Part shown: positions 46,601 to 52,600 of the stretch, in pieces
How the letters are laid out: each line of letters begins with the position of its first letter
How positions within the stretch are numbered: the stretch's first letter is position 1
Assembly (NCBI RefSeq): GCF_013167455.1
Contig: NZ_CP038328.1
Direction: 5' to 3' (one strand)
Length of the DNA: 64,000 nt
From: Escherichia coli O157:H7
Lineage (GTDB): Bacteria > Pseudomonadota > Gammaproteobacteria > Enterobacterales > Enterobacteriaceae
Made by a program: the position numbers

Positions 46601-49600
46601 CACTGGGTAAAACCACGAAAAGTAACGACAAAACATTATCTGTCAGCGCCACGCCATCAACGGACCCGATCAAAAAATTAGATTACACAGCGGTTACTTT
46701 ACTGAATAATCAACGAGTTGGTAATGTAAAACAGAGCTGTGAATATGACAGTCACGCCAATCCGGTGGGCTGTCAGCTGATCATTGTTGATGAAGGAGTA
46801 AAACCCGCCGTCGAACGGGTTTACACCATCAAAAATACGATCGATTATTATTAATGCTATTGTGCTGTCGGCTTCAGGAGAGTCTGACCCGGTGTTTTGT
46901 GCTCTGCCAGATACTGATGCTGGAATATACACATGCGAATGGCATTACGATATTGACCATTAATAAAGAACTCGTGCATCAATTCACCTTCAACCGAAAA
47001 GCCAAGCTTGCGGTAAATGTGAATCGCTTTTTCATTCTCTTTATCAACGATCAGATACAGCTTATAGAGATTGAGAACGGTGAAGCCATAGTCCATTGCT
47101 AATTTGGCGGCACGGGTTGCCAGACCTTTCCCCTGATACTCCGGGGAGATAATTATCTGAAATTCTGCGCGGCGATGTACATGGTTAATTTCCACCAACT
47201 CCACCAGACCGGCTTTTTCGCCGTCACATTCCACCACAAAGCGTCGTTCGCTCTGATCGTGAATATGCTTATCATACAGATCAGAGAGTTCAACAAAGGC
47301 TTCGTAGGGTTCCTCAAACCAGTAACGCATCACACTGGCGTTATTGTCGAGTTGATGTACATAGCGTAAATCTTCACGCTCCAGCGGGCGTAGCTTAACA
47401 CTGTGGGCGCTTGGCATAACGTGTCCTTACATTCCTTAAATCAATAACAGGTTAGGGGGTAATAACGCGGCCAGTTCGACGGTCCAGGCAGCGCAAAGTA
47501 TTTGGCTCCCAGTAGGCATTGATGTTGGCGCTTTGCTCGCATTTATCGCGGTTATCAAAAGCGGCGTCGGCTTTATCCCACTCTTTTTCAGTGCGTTTAT
47601 TCACTTTCTGGCGCAGATTGCCCGTGTCATTCCATTGCTCTTTTTCCATAGCGGCGTGCTGGCGGCTTTGTGCACTGTCGCCAGACTCAATCACCAGTTT
47701 GTTAGTTTCGGCATGAACAGTTGTGCTCAATGCCAGTGCGCAAGGCAGCAGAAAAGCGAGCAGGTCGATTCGTTTGCTGAGAGTGATTTTCATAATTCAT
47801 TCCCTGTATGAATGATTAAAGATGATTCTACACCATCCACTGCGAACGCAAAACGTACCAGGAGGGTGTTTATATTGATGATATTATGTCGCCCTATAAC
47901 TATACATGATGTCAATAAGTGACAAAGATGATTAAAACAACGTTACTATTTTTTGCTACTGCGCTGTGTGAAATTATTGGATGCTTTCTGCCCTGGTTGT
48001 GGTTAAAACGAAACGCCAGTATCTGGCTGTTGCTTCCGGCGGGGATTTCACTGGCGCTGTTTGTCTGGTTGTTAACGTTGCATCCTGCGGCGAGTGGGCG
48101 TGTTTACGCGGCTTATGGTGGCGTTTATGTCTGCACGGCGTTGATGTGGCTGCGCGTTGTGGATGGCGTGAAACTGACTCTTTATGACTGGACGGGGCCG
48201 TTGATTGCGCTTTGCGGCATGTTGATCATTGTTGTGGGCTGGGGGCGCACGTAGGAACATAAATCCATTTTATCAATAAGATACGAGGAAGTGTCAGCTG
48301 ACAAAAGGTATTCTATTTCATCTTTTGTCAACCATTCACAGCGCAAATATACGCCTTTTTTTGTGATCACTCCGGCTTTTTTCGATCTTCATACTTATAT
48401 GGTAGTAGCTCAGTTGCGTAGATTTCATGCATCACGACAAGCGATGCAAGGAATCGAACATGAAGATCGTAAAGGCTGAAGTTTTTGTTACCTGTCCGGG
48501 GCGTAATTTCGTCACATTAAAAATCACCACTGAGGACGGTATTACACCATAAATTTTTGGCTTGCTGATTTCTGCACGCATCGATAAGACGGATGAATTC
48601 CTCCCGCGAAAGAGGATCCGGAATGGTTCTTGATTCCTTTAATGGCGAGATCCCCTTAAACGGGTTATCTGCCAGGTAACCGTTATCAACACCAAACTGG
48701 AACACGGCGTTAAGATTTGTCATGTAATTATTTACAGTTACAGCCGATCTCCCTGGTTGTGTAACAATATAGTTACTTTTGGGGATCTGGTATCCAGTCA
48801 GTAGCTCTTTACGAACCTCCAGTAATTTTTCTTTATTAATCGATGAGGCAAGATTTTTTTCACCGATTATGCTCAGGATATTTTTGATGACGGCACGGTA
48901 TGTGTTGAGTGATGTTTTTGCGACTTCAGTTTCTTTCAGTGCCAGAAATTTTTCAGCCAGTTCTTTTATGGTTAAATCTTGTCGGGCCTCACCAAATTTT
49001 TCCAGATTGCGTGAGGAGGGAAACTGTTTTGCATAGTCGAAAACACCAGTTTTTATTGCGTAACAAACAGAGGCGCGTAGCTCACCTGCAACGCGCCTGT
49101 TTTTTGCTGTGTCAGGAACCCCAGGTTTTCCCTGACTCTTACGCCTTTATAAACAAACCAGATACGTAATTTCCCTCCATGGTTTTCCACGCCTGTCGGA
49201 TATTTCATTTCAACTTCTCTCATTAGTTAGTGTGGCTTTTAGTCAAGTAAGATGACGTCTTGGTCTTGCTGATGCCTGGCGCTCAATCCAGCGATCAATT
49301 TCTTCCAGGTTGTAAAAGCATGGACTGTTATCCCATGGCATACCGTCATGAGCGACATGCTTATATTCCCTTCCTTCCATAAACGATTTTTCCCGGGCCT
49401 TTTTTAACGTACCTTTTTTTATTCCTTTCAGCGCAATTAACTGCTCTTCGGATACCCATTTGCCGGGAGAGACAATCATGATTACTTCGCTCATCGATTT
49501 CTTTATCTCTTACATCAGACGAGCGCCGGTTGCAGAATACCAGTCACAACCGGCGACAGTTGAACATTAAGAATCAGCCTGACTCGGGATCAGTTTTTGC

Positions 49601-52600
49601 CAGATAGCTGAAACGTATTTTGCCTGGTAACGGGCGTCATCAAGTGCATTATGGCGCTCACCTTCGAATGGAATAGCCGTTCTGGCATCGAAGTCTATGG
49701 CTTTCCCCAGCTCAACGATTGTGCGTACATCGCGATCGTTGTAGTAACGCCACGGGCAGGGGCTCCCCTGCCGTTCGTATGAACGGCGCAAAATCGTGTT
49801 GTCGAAGTTGGCTCCATTTCCCCAGACATGAACAAAAAATTCACCGGAGTTTTCGTCGATAAATTCCCGCAATTGTAACAGTGCATCATCTAACGGGATT
49901 TCATCGGTCATAATGGCAGATTGCGCTTCGCGTGATTGTTTAAGCCACCATTTCATGGTGTCCCGATCAATGACTCCGCCAGCAGTATCCAGATCGATAG
50001 TCTTACTAAATTCCGGTCCCATATCTCCGGTTTGCGGATCGAAAAATATTGCACCTATTGAGATAATCGGGGCATCGGGATTTTTTCCCATGGTTTCAAG
50101 ATCGATCATCAGATGAATCCCCGCTCTGCTGGTGGATGTGAGATTATGATGACCGTTCGCCTTAATTAAGGGATCTGACGCCTCGCCAGTTTCACTATCG
50201 CTGGCATGATGCTGATTGCCGCCAGTGTTCTCCTTGTGCTGATGTGCAGTACCTTCCATTTCCTCCGGATCATTTTCCTGAACTTCAGGCTGATTCTCTC
50301 CATCGAATATTTCCTGGTATGTTGCGTCACCCATCACCGCACCACAATCAGGGCAGTTGCCGCCACCGCTCTGACCGCAGGCGGTGCAGATCTTTTCCGG
50401 TTCCTGTTGCACTACTGGTTCAGGTTGTTTCGTTTCTGGCTCGTTTTGTTGCGTATTTGGGCTGTTTTGTTCCGCTTTCTGGTCGTTCTGTTCCGTTTCT
50501 TGCTGGTTCTGGTTCACAGAATCGCGGGTCTGGATCCCCTTAACCCATTTCGGATCATTCGGGTCGCTAATCCCTTCAACAAATTCACCACGTGATACTG
50601 CAAGCAGTTCCTCGGCGTCAGGCTGGCTGATATTGGCTGCCTGCATAATTTTCTTTACTTCGTCAGCGGTAACTTTTACCGGTTCTGGTTGTTCAGAATT
50701 TTGTGCGGTATTTGCATTTTGCGGTAAGCCTGTGTATGTGCCATTTTTTCGGGCAAAATATTCTTCTTTTGTGATTTCAGTAGCCCCGGCAGCCAGCGCC
50801 TTATCCAGACCAGAAAGTTTGTTTGCGCGACCGTATTTTTCGCCATCCTTGTCGGTGAAGAGGAAGTAGAACGGCCCCTCACGTTCTACAGATGGTTCGA
50901 CTTCCACTTTGCATTCGGTTTTTTCGTTGTCTGGAATTGCCGTTTCCACTGCATCAGTTTCTGGTACTGGCGACGAGAGAGTATCAGTTGCGCTCTGATT
51001 TGTTCCTTCATCTTCAAACACGCCCTTTGTAGTCAGGTATTCAGTAATGTATTTGTTCAGTGCCACAGGGTCTTTGTGAATGTCGATCGGACGTTCACGG
51101 ACAAGGCCAAAAATAGTCTGGCGGTCGTAGCGAAGGGCATCAGGCTGTTTGCGCATTGATGCCGAGATACGCTTCCAGTCTTCGCGGCCGTTGTCGATAA
51201 CTTCATTTTTTGCCCAGCGATGGATGCTGCCGTCAATGTTTCCGGCATCCACATCACCAGGCCAGAGAGCGTAGGCCAGTTCGTCATCCAGTGTTTTCCA
51301 TGTCTGCTTGTATTCGCGATGAATGGCAGCAATGACCGGGTTGATTTTTCCTGTTGAATTTTCAGTGTGCTGTTGATTGGCTCTGGCGCGGGCGAGATCA
51401 ACAACAGACGTGTATTTTCCGGCTTCCTTGCGTTCACCTTCGCGACGTTTTTTCCAGATGCGCATCTCTGCCTGAATTTCGGGCCATTTGGCACCAGGCT
51501 TACATTTATGCTTAACCCACCCGATGGCATGCAGCTTAAGCTCCGGATACATAGCGTTAACTTCTGGCATTTTCATCAACGCTTCAACGATATGGCCGTC
51601 GAATGTTGCCATGTCTTCCTGCAACAATTCCTGTGCGCTAATCACCATATCAACAGTGATGTTTTCACATGTGTCGAACTTAACCATGACAGCGTTCTGT
51701 ACTTCAGGGGCCAGGTTGTCAAAAGTGACGTTCATCGGATCGGATTCAGTCTCGACCGGGACAAAGGAAGCAGACGCCTCATCCCAGCGGTTTTCCTGCA
51801 TATATTCAGCATCCCAGGAATCGAGGGCAGGGCGGGGTATACCGGGTTTATCCTCGCAAACAAGAAATTTATAAGCGCAGTCCTGAGCAGCCGGATAATG
51901 TTCCAGGAATTGCCAGTGAAATTTTGCGCGGGCGCGACGTTCATCACCGGCTTCAATGGCAGTGGCTACAGCGACGGCACCTTCTTCCTTTATTGCCTGT
52001 TCGTCCGGAATGGCGGCGCAAATAAAGACTTTACTCATTTTGTTTTACCTCATTACAGATTTAAGGGTGAACAAATCCCTGCCATTGCTGGCATATAAGA
52101 ATGAAATCGGATGTTTATTACGGAACTGTTTTAAAGACCTGCCGGGATTTCGTTATTATCCTGGTGAATAACTTTATCGACCGGGTAACAGTTACCGGGA
52201 ATTTTCTGTTCGGTTGCTGCAGTCACACACTCCTGCATTGTCCTGTGAACACTGACTGCAATATCAACTGGCTCTCCGGAAACAAGAAAAACTGTCAGAA
52301 CAAGTGCAAATGCTGTATTCATTGCCAGCATCCTTTTTGTATCGGACGTAAACGGGCCAGCATTGAAAGAATGCATATTTTATTTAATAGCTCCCGTTCG
52401 TGTTTTCTCTTGTTAATGGCATCTTCAGTAAATACAGGGTTACTGATAGTGACACCAATTTCAAAACAACCTTCAGACGTATTAACGTTTGGTAATAACG
52501 TTTCCATTATCGCGTCCTCAACAATGAATTTTGTGATGCGGTGCCTGGTGCCTCCAGGTGACGTTAACCAGTTAACAATTAACGCCGGATACAGAGAATC

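What the first reader, a model, noticed from the sequence alone, without database searches (positions are those of the whole stretch)
49567..52038. Stand-alone 823-aa exonuclease with zinc ribbon and DEDDh domain, no annealase partner
The largest prophage gene in the window has a central CxxC-x8-CxxC zinc ribbon and a C-terminal DnaQ/RNase T-like 3'-5' exonuclease domain (D-x-E at MIDLETMG, H-x4-D at HNALDDARY). Part of the middle region resembles RecE as I remember it. Lambdoid recombination exonucleases are normally 5'-3' PD-(D/E)XK enzymes paired with an annealase; here no RecT/Bet-like gene exists between xis and dicB. The polarity and role of this enzyme (recombination, anti-defence, superinfection exclusion) are open.
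Basis: partly seen in the sequence, partly recalled or inferred. Interest (0 to 1): 0.55.

Follow-up and report, generated by a model that had tools for sequence, protein, structure and literature searches.

The report
RecE-platform exonuclease with DexA-type head
The 823-aa gene is a real and very common E. coli prophage gene in which the front two-thirds of the RecE recombination nuclease carries a 3'-5' (T4 DexA-type) exonuclease in place of RecE's own nuclease and without its RecT partner; it is already annotated and its role has never been tested.

Summary
Window 49567-52038 (-) is an intact 823-aa ORF, identical to RefSeq WP_000048458.1 "exonuclease" of prophage CP-933P in E. coli O157:H7 EDL933. 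The C-terminus (642-813) is a DEDDh exonuclease (Pfam PF16473, E 6e-66; D646, E648, D746, H796, D801). Its nearest solved relative is T4 DexA. Residues 262-625 match K-12 RecE 278-591, including a four-Cys motif that is CxxC-x7-CxxC, not x8. No annealase lies in the early-left operon.

New here: the gene is an exact head swap. A 900-aa relative with a 92% identical N-terminus carries RecE's PD-(D/E)XK domain followed by recT-lar-rcbA. Similarity stops after "...DP(L/V)I" (RecE I591). The DEDDh head then begins and xis follows directly.

The DEDDh form is the commoner one: 4045 of 5426 complete E. coli genomes, against 1727 for the RecE head plus recT. It is also carried by complete lambdoid phage genomes that have no annealase and have Chi sites. 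K-12 ydfE is its IS2-truncated remnant.

It is most likely an annealase-independent 3'-5' DNA exonuclease made early after induction. Its biological role is unresolved: DNA-end processing for host RecBCD, or anti-phage attack like the DexA homologue EcD. The gene is known and annotated. Interest is modest.

The parts
49567..52038 (-). Whole 823-aa ORF with stop codon; RecE-type platform plus DEDDh head (WP_000048458.1)
51424..52038 (-). Residues 1-205: folded N-terminal domain (Pfam YdfE_N in precomputed annotation), no solved structural relative
51004..51321 (-). Residues 240-345: second folded helical domain; RecE homology starts here (RecE 278 onward)
50734..50886 (-). Residues 385-435: small beta-hairpin/helix domain, an insertion relative to K-12 RecE
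   Evidence: AF2 pLDDT >90; gap in RecE alignment
50164..50658 (-). Residues 461-625: central region near-identical to RecE 450-591 (RGEFVxGISDPNDPKWV, acidic low-complexity linker); shared DNA homology with RecE-type genes ends at 50165
50344..50388 (-). Residues 551-565: CxxC-x7-CxxC putative zinc ribbon inside the linker
   Evidence: conserved in RecE; absent in P0122/P0141/P0247; AF2 pLDDT about 70-77
50116..50163 (-). Residues 626-641 (KANGHHNLTSTSRAGI): junction linker. It follows the last residue shared with RecE (…DPLI) and precedes the point where stand-alone DEDDh genes start
50128..50135 (+). Chi octamer GCTGGTGG inside the junction linker (codons 635-637), in the orientation active for RecBCD entering from the right cos end
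49570..50115 (-). Residues 642-823: DEDDh 3'-5' exonuclease head (PF16473; T4 DexA class); D646, E648, D746, H796, D801
49243..49494 (-). Excisionase gene immediately downstream (72-bp gap); in RecE-type relatives recT-lar-rcbA lie between
52131..52322 (-). ydfD-like DUF1482 gene immediately upstream in the same leftward operon
52319..52507 (-). dicB, upstream in the same operon
52682..52733 (-). DicF sRNA, same operon
   Evidence: Rfam RF00039, 76.7 bits

Best explanation
The gene encodes a mosaic early-left-operon nuclease of Rac/Qin-type lambdoid prophages. It has a RecE-type N-terminal platform: three folded domains of unknown function, then a long acidic disordered linker with an optional four-Cys motif. 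That platform carries a T4 DexA-class DEDDh head in place of RecE's PD-(D/E)XK domain.

Shown here: the architecture; the exact swap point after …DP(L/V)I (RecE I591); the co-replacement of recT-lar-rcbA; intact catalytic residues; purifying selection; and prevalence.

Inferred from family knowledge: the head removes nucleotides from free 3'-OH ends by two-metal hydrolysis with 3'->5' polarity, and most probably acts on DNA. The RecT-docking RecE nuclease domain is absent, so the protein does not load an annealase and is not a SynExo recombinase.

Inferred from position: it is transcribed with DicF, dicB and ydfD from the repressor-controlled leftward promoter, that is, after induction or infection.

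Most likely role (speculative): processing or degradation of linear DNA 3' ends in phages that have no Rec module and carry Chi. Trimming 3' tails would let host RecBCD load and reach Chi.
For: DEDDh assignment: PF16473 E 5.6e-66. A profile of the head hits T4 DexA (8kel) at E 4e-19 over the whole domain. The catalytic residues are invariant.

Head swap: P0107 (900 aa) has a 92% identical N-terminus but PF12684, followed by RecT, Lar and DUF1187. DNA identity of 95.6% ends at window 50165, the same point where K-12 recE similarity ends. Similarity to stand-alone sb30 begins at 50111. P0128 pairs the Rac-type RecE N-terminus with the DEDDh head, again followed directly by xis and int.

Maintained function: dN/dS is 0.12-0.39. 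The head is in 4045 of 5426 genomes and in complete phage genomes.

DNA-metabolic context of stand-alone homologues: helicase-exo-primase in 9NA and SSB-exo-phosphoesterase in a Vibrio phage.

No annealase.

Chi: Tritos 9 top-strand / 2 bottom-strand, mEp460_ev081 7/2, HannyBb 5/2. This fits the 'no Rec module, Chi-containing' class of Zheng et al. 2025.
Against: No biochemical or genetic data exist for this protein. The Pfam family is named after an exoribonuclease and PGAP often calls relatives '3'-5' exoribonuclease', so RNA substrates are not excluded.

The platform's function is unknown and has no structural match, so 'delivery to DNA ends' is conjecture.

CP-933P itself has only 6 Chi in about 50 kb, 4 of them in the active orientation. 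That is below the >=8 typical of the Zheng et al. class.

Those authors argue that int-proximal DnaQ-type nucleases are not Rec-module proteins, because they also occur in phages with full Rec modules.

DEDDh ssDNA exonucleases usually inhibit rather than promote recombination (cited).
Confidence: 0.55

Rival explanations
1. Anti-phage (superinfection-exclusion) nuclease of the HREX/EcD type. The head selectively digests modified DNA of incoming T-even-like phages, such as 5hmC DNA, and protects the lysogen or the induced cell.
For: Kang et al. 2025 (PMC12153337) show that EcD, an E. coli DexA homologue, degrades T4 5hmC DNA but not unmodified dsDNA, and confers T4 resistance from a plasmid. 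I recovered an EcD-like 189-aa protein through the paper's primer sequence. It has Ala at position 78 as the paper describes. It is 36.6% identical to the window head (E 1e-36), falls in the same phrog_255, and is itself encoded in a temperate-phage early operon. DicB in the same operon is reported to block other phages (my recollection of Ragunathan & Vanderpool 2019).
Against: The gene lies in the repressor-controlled early-left operon, so it should be silent in a stable lysogen. In a MAFFT alignment the window head keeps Asp at the DexA D90 column, while EcD has Ala there, the change the authors link to modified-DNA selectivity. At 37% identity, specificity cannot be transferred. This reading does not explain why the head sits on a RecE platform that also carries a recombination nuclease.
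Confidence: 0.2
2. Exoribonuclease. The head trims RNA 3' ends like Rv2179c, for example processing or turnover of operon RNAs such as DicF, or of host RNAs.
For: The Pfam family name and the PGAP names ('3'-5' exoribonuclease domain-containing protein'). DicF is processed from the same transcript.
Against: No Rv2179c chain appeared among PDB matches to the head profile at E <= 0.01. The best hit is the DNA exonuclease T4 DexA at E 4e-19. The same platform otherwise carries a dsDNA exonuclease. Stand-alone homologues sit among DNA replication genes.
Confidence: 0.1
3. Host-DNA scavenging, or destruction of 3' ssDNA tails that would otherwise feed RecA/SOS or trigger abortive-infection sensors. 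This would be an ExoI/DexA-like clean-up or counter-defence role during lytic growth.
For: DexA's classical role is host DNA breakdown (abstract). The gene is expressed early. DEDDh ssDNA exonucleases remove recombinogenic 3' tails (Lovett 2011, as cited).
Against: There is no direct evidence. Lambdoid phages are not known to degrade host DNA. The PADLOC scan shows only a generic DEDDh match.
Confidence: 0.1
4. Degenerate remnant of recE-recT with no current function, or an annealase gene that was overlooked.
For: The CP-933P integrase is frameshifted and structural genes are duplicated and frameshifted. K-12 ydfE is an IS2-truncated pseudogene of this family.
Against: The ORF is intact. dN/dS is 0.12-0.39 in all segments with enough divergence. 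Catalytic residues are invariant. The same arrangement occurs in complete phage genomes. No early-left ORF other than this one exceeds about 145 aa, and none matches an annealase family.
Confidence: 0.03

Closest known systems
RecE (exonuclease VIII) of the Rac prophage, E. coli K-12
   Same: Same operon position, between kil/dicB-type genes and xis-int. The platform is homologous: query 262-625 matches RecE 278-591 at E 2e-58, including the RGEFVxGISDPNDPKWV block, the four-Cys motif and the acidic linker. Relatives exist with an identical-type N-terminus and a true RecE head.
   Different: The PD-(D/E)XK nuclease domain (RecE 592-866) is absent and replaced by a DEDDh head. There is no recT, lar or rcbA downstream. 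The NCBIfam exoVIII equivalog scores 274 bits against a cut-off of 1269. Expected polarity is 3'->5' rather than 5'->3'. Residues 1-260 are of the YdfE type, not the Rac type.
T4 exonuclease A (DexA; PDB 8kel) and its E. coli homologue EcD (HREX)
   Same: Same DEDDh subfamily. The head profile hits DexA at E 4e-19 over the full domain. The head is 36.6% identical to an EcD-like protein and shares phrog_255 with it. The catalytic D, E, D, H, D residues are conserved.
   Different: DexA and EcD are stand-alone proteins of 189-227 aa. Here the head is fused behind a 640-aa RecE-type platform. The window head keeps Asp at the DexA D90 column, unlike EcD. Substrate and modification preference are untested.
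Stand-alone int-proximal DnaQ-type exonucleases of lambdoid phages (ST64B Sb30, mEp460 gp26)
   Same: 57-60% identical to the head. They are the last gene before xis-int in the early-left operon. They occur in phages that Zheng et al. 2025 place in the 'no Rec module' group.
   Different: They lack the whole 640-aa platform and the 16-residue NGHH…TS(R/K) linker that precedes the head in fused forms.
ydfE pseudogene of the Qin prophage, E. coli K-12
   Same: Syntenic: dicF-dicB-ydfD-ydfE-…-intQ next to ynfA, the same chromosomal neighbourhood as CP-933P. Pfam names the platform domains YdfE_N and YdfE_C.
   Different: K-12 ydfE is cut by IS2E after about 300 codons and has no head. The window copy is full length.
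Lambda Exo-Bet / RecE-RecT SynExo two-component recombinases
   Same: Early-left operon location and a nuclease acting, presumably, on DNA ends.
   Different: No annealase partner, no PD-(D/E)XK fold, opposite expected polarity.

Membership tests
DEDDh (DnaQ-like) 3'-5' exonucleases, Pfam PF16473 / T4 DexA subfamily | Exo I motif D-x-E | tested here: met
   D646, E648 in MIDLETMG; invariant in alignments A4 and A5
DEDDh (DnaQ-like) 3'-5' exonucleases, Pfam PF16473 / T4 DexA subfamily | Exo II acidic residue | tested here: met
   D746 in WGNGANFDN; invariant
DEDDh (DnaQ-like) 3'-5' exonucleases, Pfam PF16473 / T4 DexA subfamily | Exo III motif H-x4-D (the 'h' subtype) | tested here: met
   H796…D801 in HNALDDARY; invariant
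DEDDh (DnaQ-like) 3'-5' exonucleases, Pfam PF16473 / T4 DexA subfamily | Full-length significant match to the family profile | tested here: met
   PF16473 model positions 2-177 of 177, E 5.6e-66; DexA 8kel E 4e-19 with the head profile
DEDDh (DnaQ-like) 3'-5' exonucleases, Pfam PF16473 / T4 DexA subfamily | Mg2+-dependent 3'->5' exonuclease activity; DNA versus RNA substrate | not testable with these tools
   Needs a purified-protein assay
RecE / exodeoxyribonuclease VIII | C-terminal PD-(D/E)XK nuclease domain (PF12684 / RecE 592-866) | tested here: not met
   No PF12684 hit; similarity to RecE ends at I591
RecE / exodeoxyribonuclease VIII | NCBIfam NF007259 equivalog score at or above the curated cut-off | tested here: not met
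   273.8 bits against cut-off 1269
RecE / exodeoxyribonuclease VIII | Overlapping downstream recT | tested here: not met
   xis follows after 72 bp. The RecE-head relative L008 does have recT
RecE / exodeoxyribonuclease VIII | RecE N-terminal/central region of unknown function | tested here: met
   BLASTP E 2e-58 over RecE 278-591; PF27430/PF27432 in near-identical proteins
SynExo two-component recombinase (exonuclease + annealase) | Adjacent single-strand annealing protein (Bet/RecT/Erf/Sak/Sak4) | tested here: not met
   PHROG scan of all early-left ORFs and PGAP annotation of the prophage; the same holds in phage Tritos
HREX / EcD anti-phage exonuclease (Kang et al. 2025) | DexA homologue with conserved catalytic residues | tested here: met
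   36.6% identity to the EcD-like protein, E 1e-36
HREX / EcD anti-phage exonuclease (Kang et al. 2025) | Loss of the DexA D90 tetramer contact (Ala in EcD) | tested here: not met
   MAFFT places Asp (PLDDAL) at that column. The alignment in this loop is not secure
HREX / EcD anti-phage exonuclease (Kang et al. 2025) | Selective cleavage of 5hmC DNA and protection from T4 | not testable with these tools
   Needs nuclease and plaque assays
'No Rec module, Chi-rich' lambdoid phages (Zheng et al. 2025) | No annealase, Rec nuclease, SSB or anti-RecBCD gene in the early-left operon | tested here: met
   The DEDDh gene itself is classed by those authors as outside the Rec module
'No Rec module, Chi-rich' lambdoid phages (Zheng et al. 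2025) | Eight or more Chi in the active orientation, few in the other | tested here: inconclusive
   CP-933P has 4 active / 2 inactive in about 50 kb. Tritos 9/2, mEp460_ev081 7/2, HannyBb 5/2

The most novel reading that the evidence does not exclude
The RecE N-terminal region is a general delivery platform that lambdoid prophages equip with interchangeable heads. The heads seen are a 5'-3' PD-(D/E)XK nuclease with RecT, a DexA-type 3'-5' nuclease, and a third head of about 280 aa with no Pfam family that is followed by a Gp157/Mu-Gam-like gene. On this reading the DEDDh version is the functional substitute for a Rec module. It blunts 3' tails at phage DNA ends so that host RecBCD can load and reach Chi, one copy of which is embedded in the gene's own junction linker. 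That would give the long-unexplained RecE N-terminus a testable function.
Probability: 0.15. Interest if true: 0.6.

Novelty: already known. Interest (0 to 1): 0.3.

Why it matters
This is one of the most widespread prophage genes in E. coli: about 75% of complete genomes carry the head, with up to 7 copies per genome. Yet no function is assigned.

It shares with RecE the roughly 590-residue region that reviews still call 'of unknown function' (PMC11611040). That region alters recombineering outcome: full-length RecE favours linear-linear recombination.

The same platform is naturally paired with nucleases of opposite polarity, always swapped at one precise joint. That offers a clean genetic handle on what the platform does. 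It also bears on how Rec-module-less lambdoid phages, including many O157 prophages, handle DNA ends.

If the head behaves like EcD, it would also be a very common anti-T-even defence. None of this changes the basic verdict: the gene and its domains are already catalogued.

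Tried and rejected

2. I tested whether the third head is a Rad52/Sak-type annealase, prompted by its KKSLTDAxKKALSxLGF motif. All tests were negative: Pfam Rad52_Rad22 only E about 0.05 in 2 members; no PDB sequence hit; AF2 plus Foldseek no hit; hhalign against ul36 Sak E 0.34 and against RecT E 0.78. The idea is not established.

3. I first took Pfam PF06630 'Exonuc_VIII' to be that third head. It is actually the Rac-type RecE N-terminus.

4. Defence-system membership: PADLOC gave only a generic Cas-associated DEDDh match at E 3e-5.

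5. Chi enrichment in CP-933P itself is modest, 6 in 50 kb, so the RecBCD link rests on related intact phages.

6. Literature. I found no paper combining Rv2179c with prophage, or ydfE with exonuclease. Two searches were wasted on word-start matches (receptor, dexamethasone). The supplementary tables of Zheng et al. are not held, so I could not see how they classed Tritos or mEp460_ev081.

7. I did not predict the structure of the head itself. Pfam and PDB profile matches were already decisive.

Full report
WHERE THE WINDOW COMES FROM. The 2472-bp region is 100% identical to E. coli O157:H7 genomes, for example EDL933 NZ_CP008957.1 2345826-2348297. RefSeq annotates it there as 'exonuclease' WP_000048458.1 in a defective lambdoid prophage (CP-933P). 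The prophage lies beside ynfA and has a frameshifted integrase and duplicated, frameshifted structural genes. The leftward early operon reads: regulator - relBE - small ORFs - ydfC - DicF (Rfam 76.7 bits) - dicB - ydfD-like DUF1482 - the 823-aa gene - xis - int remnant. This matches the dicBF operon of the K-12 Qin prophage at the same chromosomal neighbourhood. In K-12 the corresponding gene, ydfE, is a pseudogene cut by IS2E.

CHECK OF THE OBSERVATION. The ORF, its length and its strand are as stated, and it is the largest ORF in the prophage part of the window. The C-terminal domain is a DEDDh exonuclease. Pfam PF16473 (Rv2179c-like) covers residues 642-813 end to end at E 5.6e-66. All five residues are invariant in fused and stand-alone homologues. 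The four-Cys motif is C551xxC554-x7-C562xxC565, so the spacing is x7 rather than x8. It is shared with RecE but missing from several DEDDh-fused relatives. Its Pfam zinc-ribbon hit is insignificant, so metal binding is only inferred. The remembered RecE resemblance is real: residues 262-625 align with K-12 RecE 278-591 (E 2e-58), and the stretch from about 470 to 625 is nearly identical. No ORF between xis and the repressor matches an annealase family. None is annotated elsewhere in the prophage.

WHAT IT IS: AN EXACT HEAD SWAP ON A RecE-TYPE PLATFORM. I searched residues 1-640 against 5.8 billion proteins. This returned thousands of E. coli proteins whose precomputed Pfam architecture is YdfE_N + YdfE_C + Rv2179c-like. 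It also returned 900-aa proteins (P0107, P0114) with a 92% identical N-terminus but PF12684, the RecE PD-(D/E)XK domain. The contig encoding P0107 reads dicB - DUF1482 - [platform + PD-(D/E)XK] - RecT - Lar - DUF1187 (rcbA-like) - Exc - Int. At DNA level the window and that locus are 95.6% identical from 52811 down to 50165, and there the similarity stops. K-12 recE similarity stops at the same base. Similarity to the stand-alone exonuclease gene sb30 of phage ST64B starts at 50111. In protein terms all forms share '…ETGE(A/V)(S/A)DP(L/V)I'. RecE then continues 'VEDIEPGIYYGISNENYH…', the start of its nuclease domain at V592. The window protein continues 'KANGHHNLTSTSRAGIHLMIDLETMG…'. So the PD-(D/E)XK head together with recT, lar and rcbA is replaced by a DEDDh head followed directly by xis.

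The swap has happened on more than one platform. P0128 has the Rac-type RecE N-terminus (Pfam PF06630) joined to the DEDDh head, again followed by an excisionase-like gene and int, with no recT. In a library of 1.84 billion cluster representatives only 245 match the platform, so the family is narrow. Its long members carry one of three heads: DEDDh, PD-(D/E)XK, or a third head of about 280 aa without a Pfam family.

IT IS COMMON, MAINTAINED AND PRESENT IN COMPLETE PHAGE GENOMES. The DEDDh-head DNA occurs in 4045 of 5426 complete E. coli genomes, at 8098 places and up to 7 per genome. The RecE head plus recT occurs in 1727 genomes. Pairwise dN/dS is 0.12-0.39 for every segment with enough divergence, and lowest for the head. 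The complete lambdoid phage genomes Tritos, HannyBb and mEp460_ev081 have the same dicB-ydfD-exo-xis-int order. Every other ORF in the Tritos early-left operon is too small to be an annealase. The larger unassigned ORFs elsewhere in that phage match no annealase family. The arrangement is therefore not a product of prophage decay.

WHAT THE HEAD IS RELATED TO. A profile of the head plus five stand-alone phage homologues hits PDB 8kel at E 4e-19 over the whole domain. The 8kel sequence is 100% identical to T4 exonuclease A, DexA. Kang et al. 2025 (PMC12153337) characterise DexA as a 3'-5' DNA exonuclease. They report that an E. coli homologue, EcD, degrades 5hmC-containing T4 DNA but not unmodified dsDNA and protects cells from T4 when plasmid-borne. 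I used the EcD primer from their supplement to scan IMG/VR. This recovered a 189-aa protein beginning MIDTETLGNGPD… with Ala at position 78, as they describe. It is 36.6% identical to the window head (E 1e-36), shares phrog_255 with it, and lies in a temperate-phage early operon beside a DNA methyltransferase. In the alignment the window head keeps Asp at the DexA D90 column, where EcD has Ala. Other stand-alone homologues lie among replication genes: helicase-exo-primase in 9NA and SSB-exo-phosphoesterase in a Vibrio phage. In ST64B and mEp460 the homologue is the last gene before xis-int.

LINK TO THE 'NO REC MODULE' LAMBDOID CLASS. Zheng, Casjens, Smith and colleagues (PMC12315714) describe lambdoid phages that lack any Rec module, carry many Chi sites in the active orientation, and are helped by RecBCD. 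They note sporadic DnaQ-type nuclease genes near int and do not count them as Rec-module genes. They also mention 'RecE-2' proteins without a nuclease domain. The phages carrying the fused gene fit that class moderately well. Top-strand / bottom-strand Chi counts are 9/2 for Tritos, 7/2 for mEp460_ev081 and 5/2 for HannyBb, where random expectation is below one per genome. CP-933P has 4 active and 2 inactive in about 50 kb. One active-orientation Chi lies within the 16-codon junction linker of the gene itself in the window, mEp460_ev081 and 689R5. Tritos and HannyBb have a top-strand Chi inside the gene at a position consistent with this. It is absent from the Rac-type fusion L011.

MOST LIKELY MECHANISM. 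Shown: the architecture, the joint, the loss of recT, the intact active site, selection and prevalence. Inferred from the DEDDh/DexA family: two-metal hydrolysis from a free 3'-OH end, 3'->5', probably on DNA. Inferred from the missing RecE nuclease domain, which is where RecT binds according to my recollection of Muyrers et al. 2000: no annealase loading, hence not a SynExo recombinase. Inferred from operon position: expression after induction or infection, not in the quiescent lysogen. The biological role is open. I rank the options in this order:
- DNA 3'-end processing in support of host RecBCD/Chi recombination.
- EcD-like attack on modified foreign DNA.
- RNA trimming.
- Clean-up of 3' ssDNA.
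The first fits the shared platform and the Chi-bearing, Rec-less genomes. The second has the only experimental precedent, but it is weakened by the repressed operon context and by the D90 column.

COMPARISON AND NOVELTY. The protein works like a DexA-class exonuclease and is a member of PF16473 on every sequence criterion tested. It is not a RecE: there is no PD-(D/E)XK domain, the score is 274 bits against the 1269 cut-off, and there is no recT. It does contain the RecE platform. The gene, its domains and its position are already in RefSeq, Pfam and PHROGs, and the DnaQ-near-int pattern is noted in the literature. I found no published description of the precise RecE-platform head swap or of the three-head repertoire, and nobody has tested the function. 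I therefore rate it as already known, with modest interest. The open question concerns what the platform does.

Noticed in passing
window 50128-50135 (+): A Chi octamer (GCTGGTGG, active orientation for RecBCD coming from the right cos end) sits exactly in the 16-codon linker between the RecE-homologous part and the DEDDh head (codons S-T-S). It is at the same codon in mEp460_ev081 and 689R5, and a top-strand Chi lies inside the gene in Tritos and HannyBb. It is absent from the Rac-type fusion L011. It could be coincidence (TCC ACC AGC) or a recombination hotspot at the swap joint.
   Followed up: partly
proteins P0134, P0138, P0154, P0166, P0182, P0217, P0235; L010 5001-7205; L019 (phage ZF40 gp07): A third head on the same platform: about 280 aa, no Pfam family, PHROG 2489 C-terminus / 7838. 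It has an invariant KKSLTDAxKKALSxLGFSAD helix that resembles the Rad52/Sak signature. It is always followed by a Sipho_Gp157 / 'Mu Gam-like' gene. Stand-alone homologues occur in Pseudomonas phages F116 and PMG1 and in Vibrio phages. These may be the 'RecE-2' proteins of Zheng et al. Tests for an annealase fold were negative or inconclusive.
   Followed up: partly
window 48427-48552 (+) and 48526-49208 (-): Right after ynfA there is only a 40-codon N-terminal fragment resembling rspA ([29 protein letters not shown]…, identified from memory). It abuts a frameshifted, truncated integrase. So the prophage end and rspA are both damaged here, whereas K-12 keeps rspAB between ynfA and intQ.
   Followed up: partly
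window 54018-54543 (-), 59579-59753 (+), 62669-62915 (+), 63692-63864 (+): The prophage carries a RelE/ParE-RelB toxin-antitoxin pair inside the early-left operon, a hokD/sok locus, three tRNA genes (Ile, Arg, Arg) downstream of Q, and an STnc100 sRNA match.
   Followed up: no
L015 33876-35210 (-) and L017 33822-35171 (-): Phages Tritos and mEp460_ev081 carry a 444-449-aa gene of unknown function (phrog_4962). It lies on the opposite strand between the replication and nin regions, which is moron-like placement. It is not present in the window.
   Followed up: no
L030 5190-6970 (-): The EcD-like anti-T4 exonuclease of Kang et al. 2025 is itself encoded on IMG/VR viral contigs. It lies in a temperate-phage early operon, next to a DNA methyltransferase and a nucleoside 2-deoxyribosyltransferase-like gene. 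The paper does not mention prophages.
   Followed up: partly
protein cluster P0004 (657 aa, 8328 member sequences): A very large cluster of 'partial' copies ends at about residue 657, just inside the DEDDh head. This is probably because the multi-copy head breaks short-read assemblies there. It is a caution for counting this gene in draft genomes.
   Followed up: no
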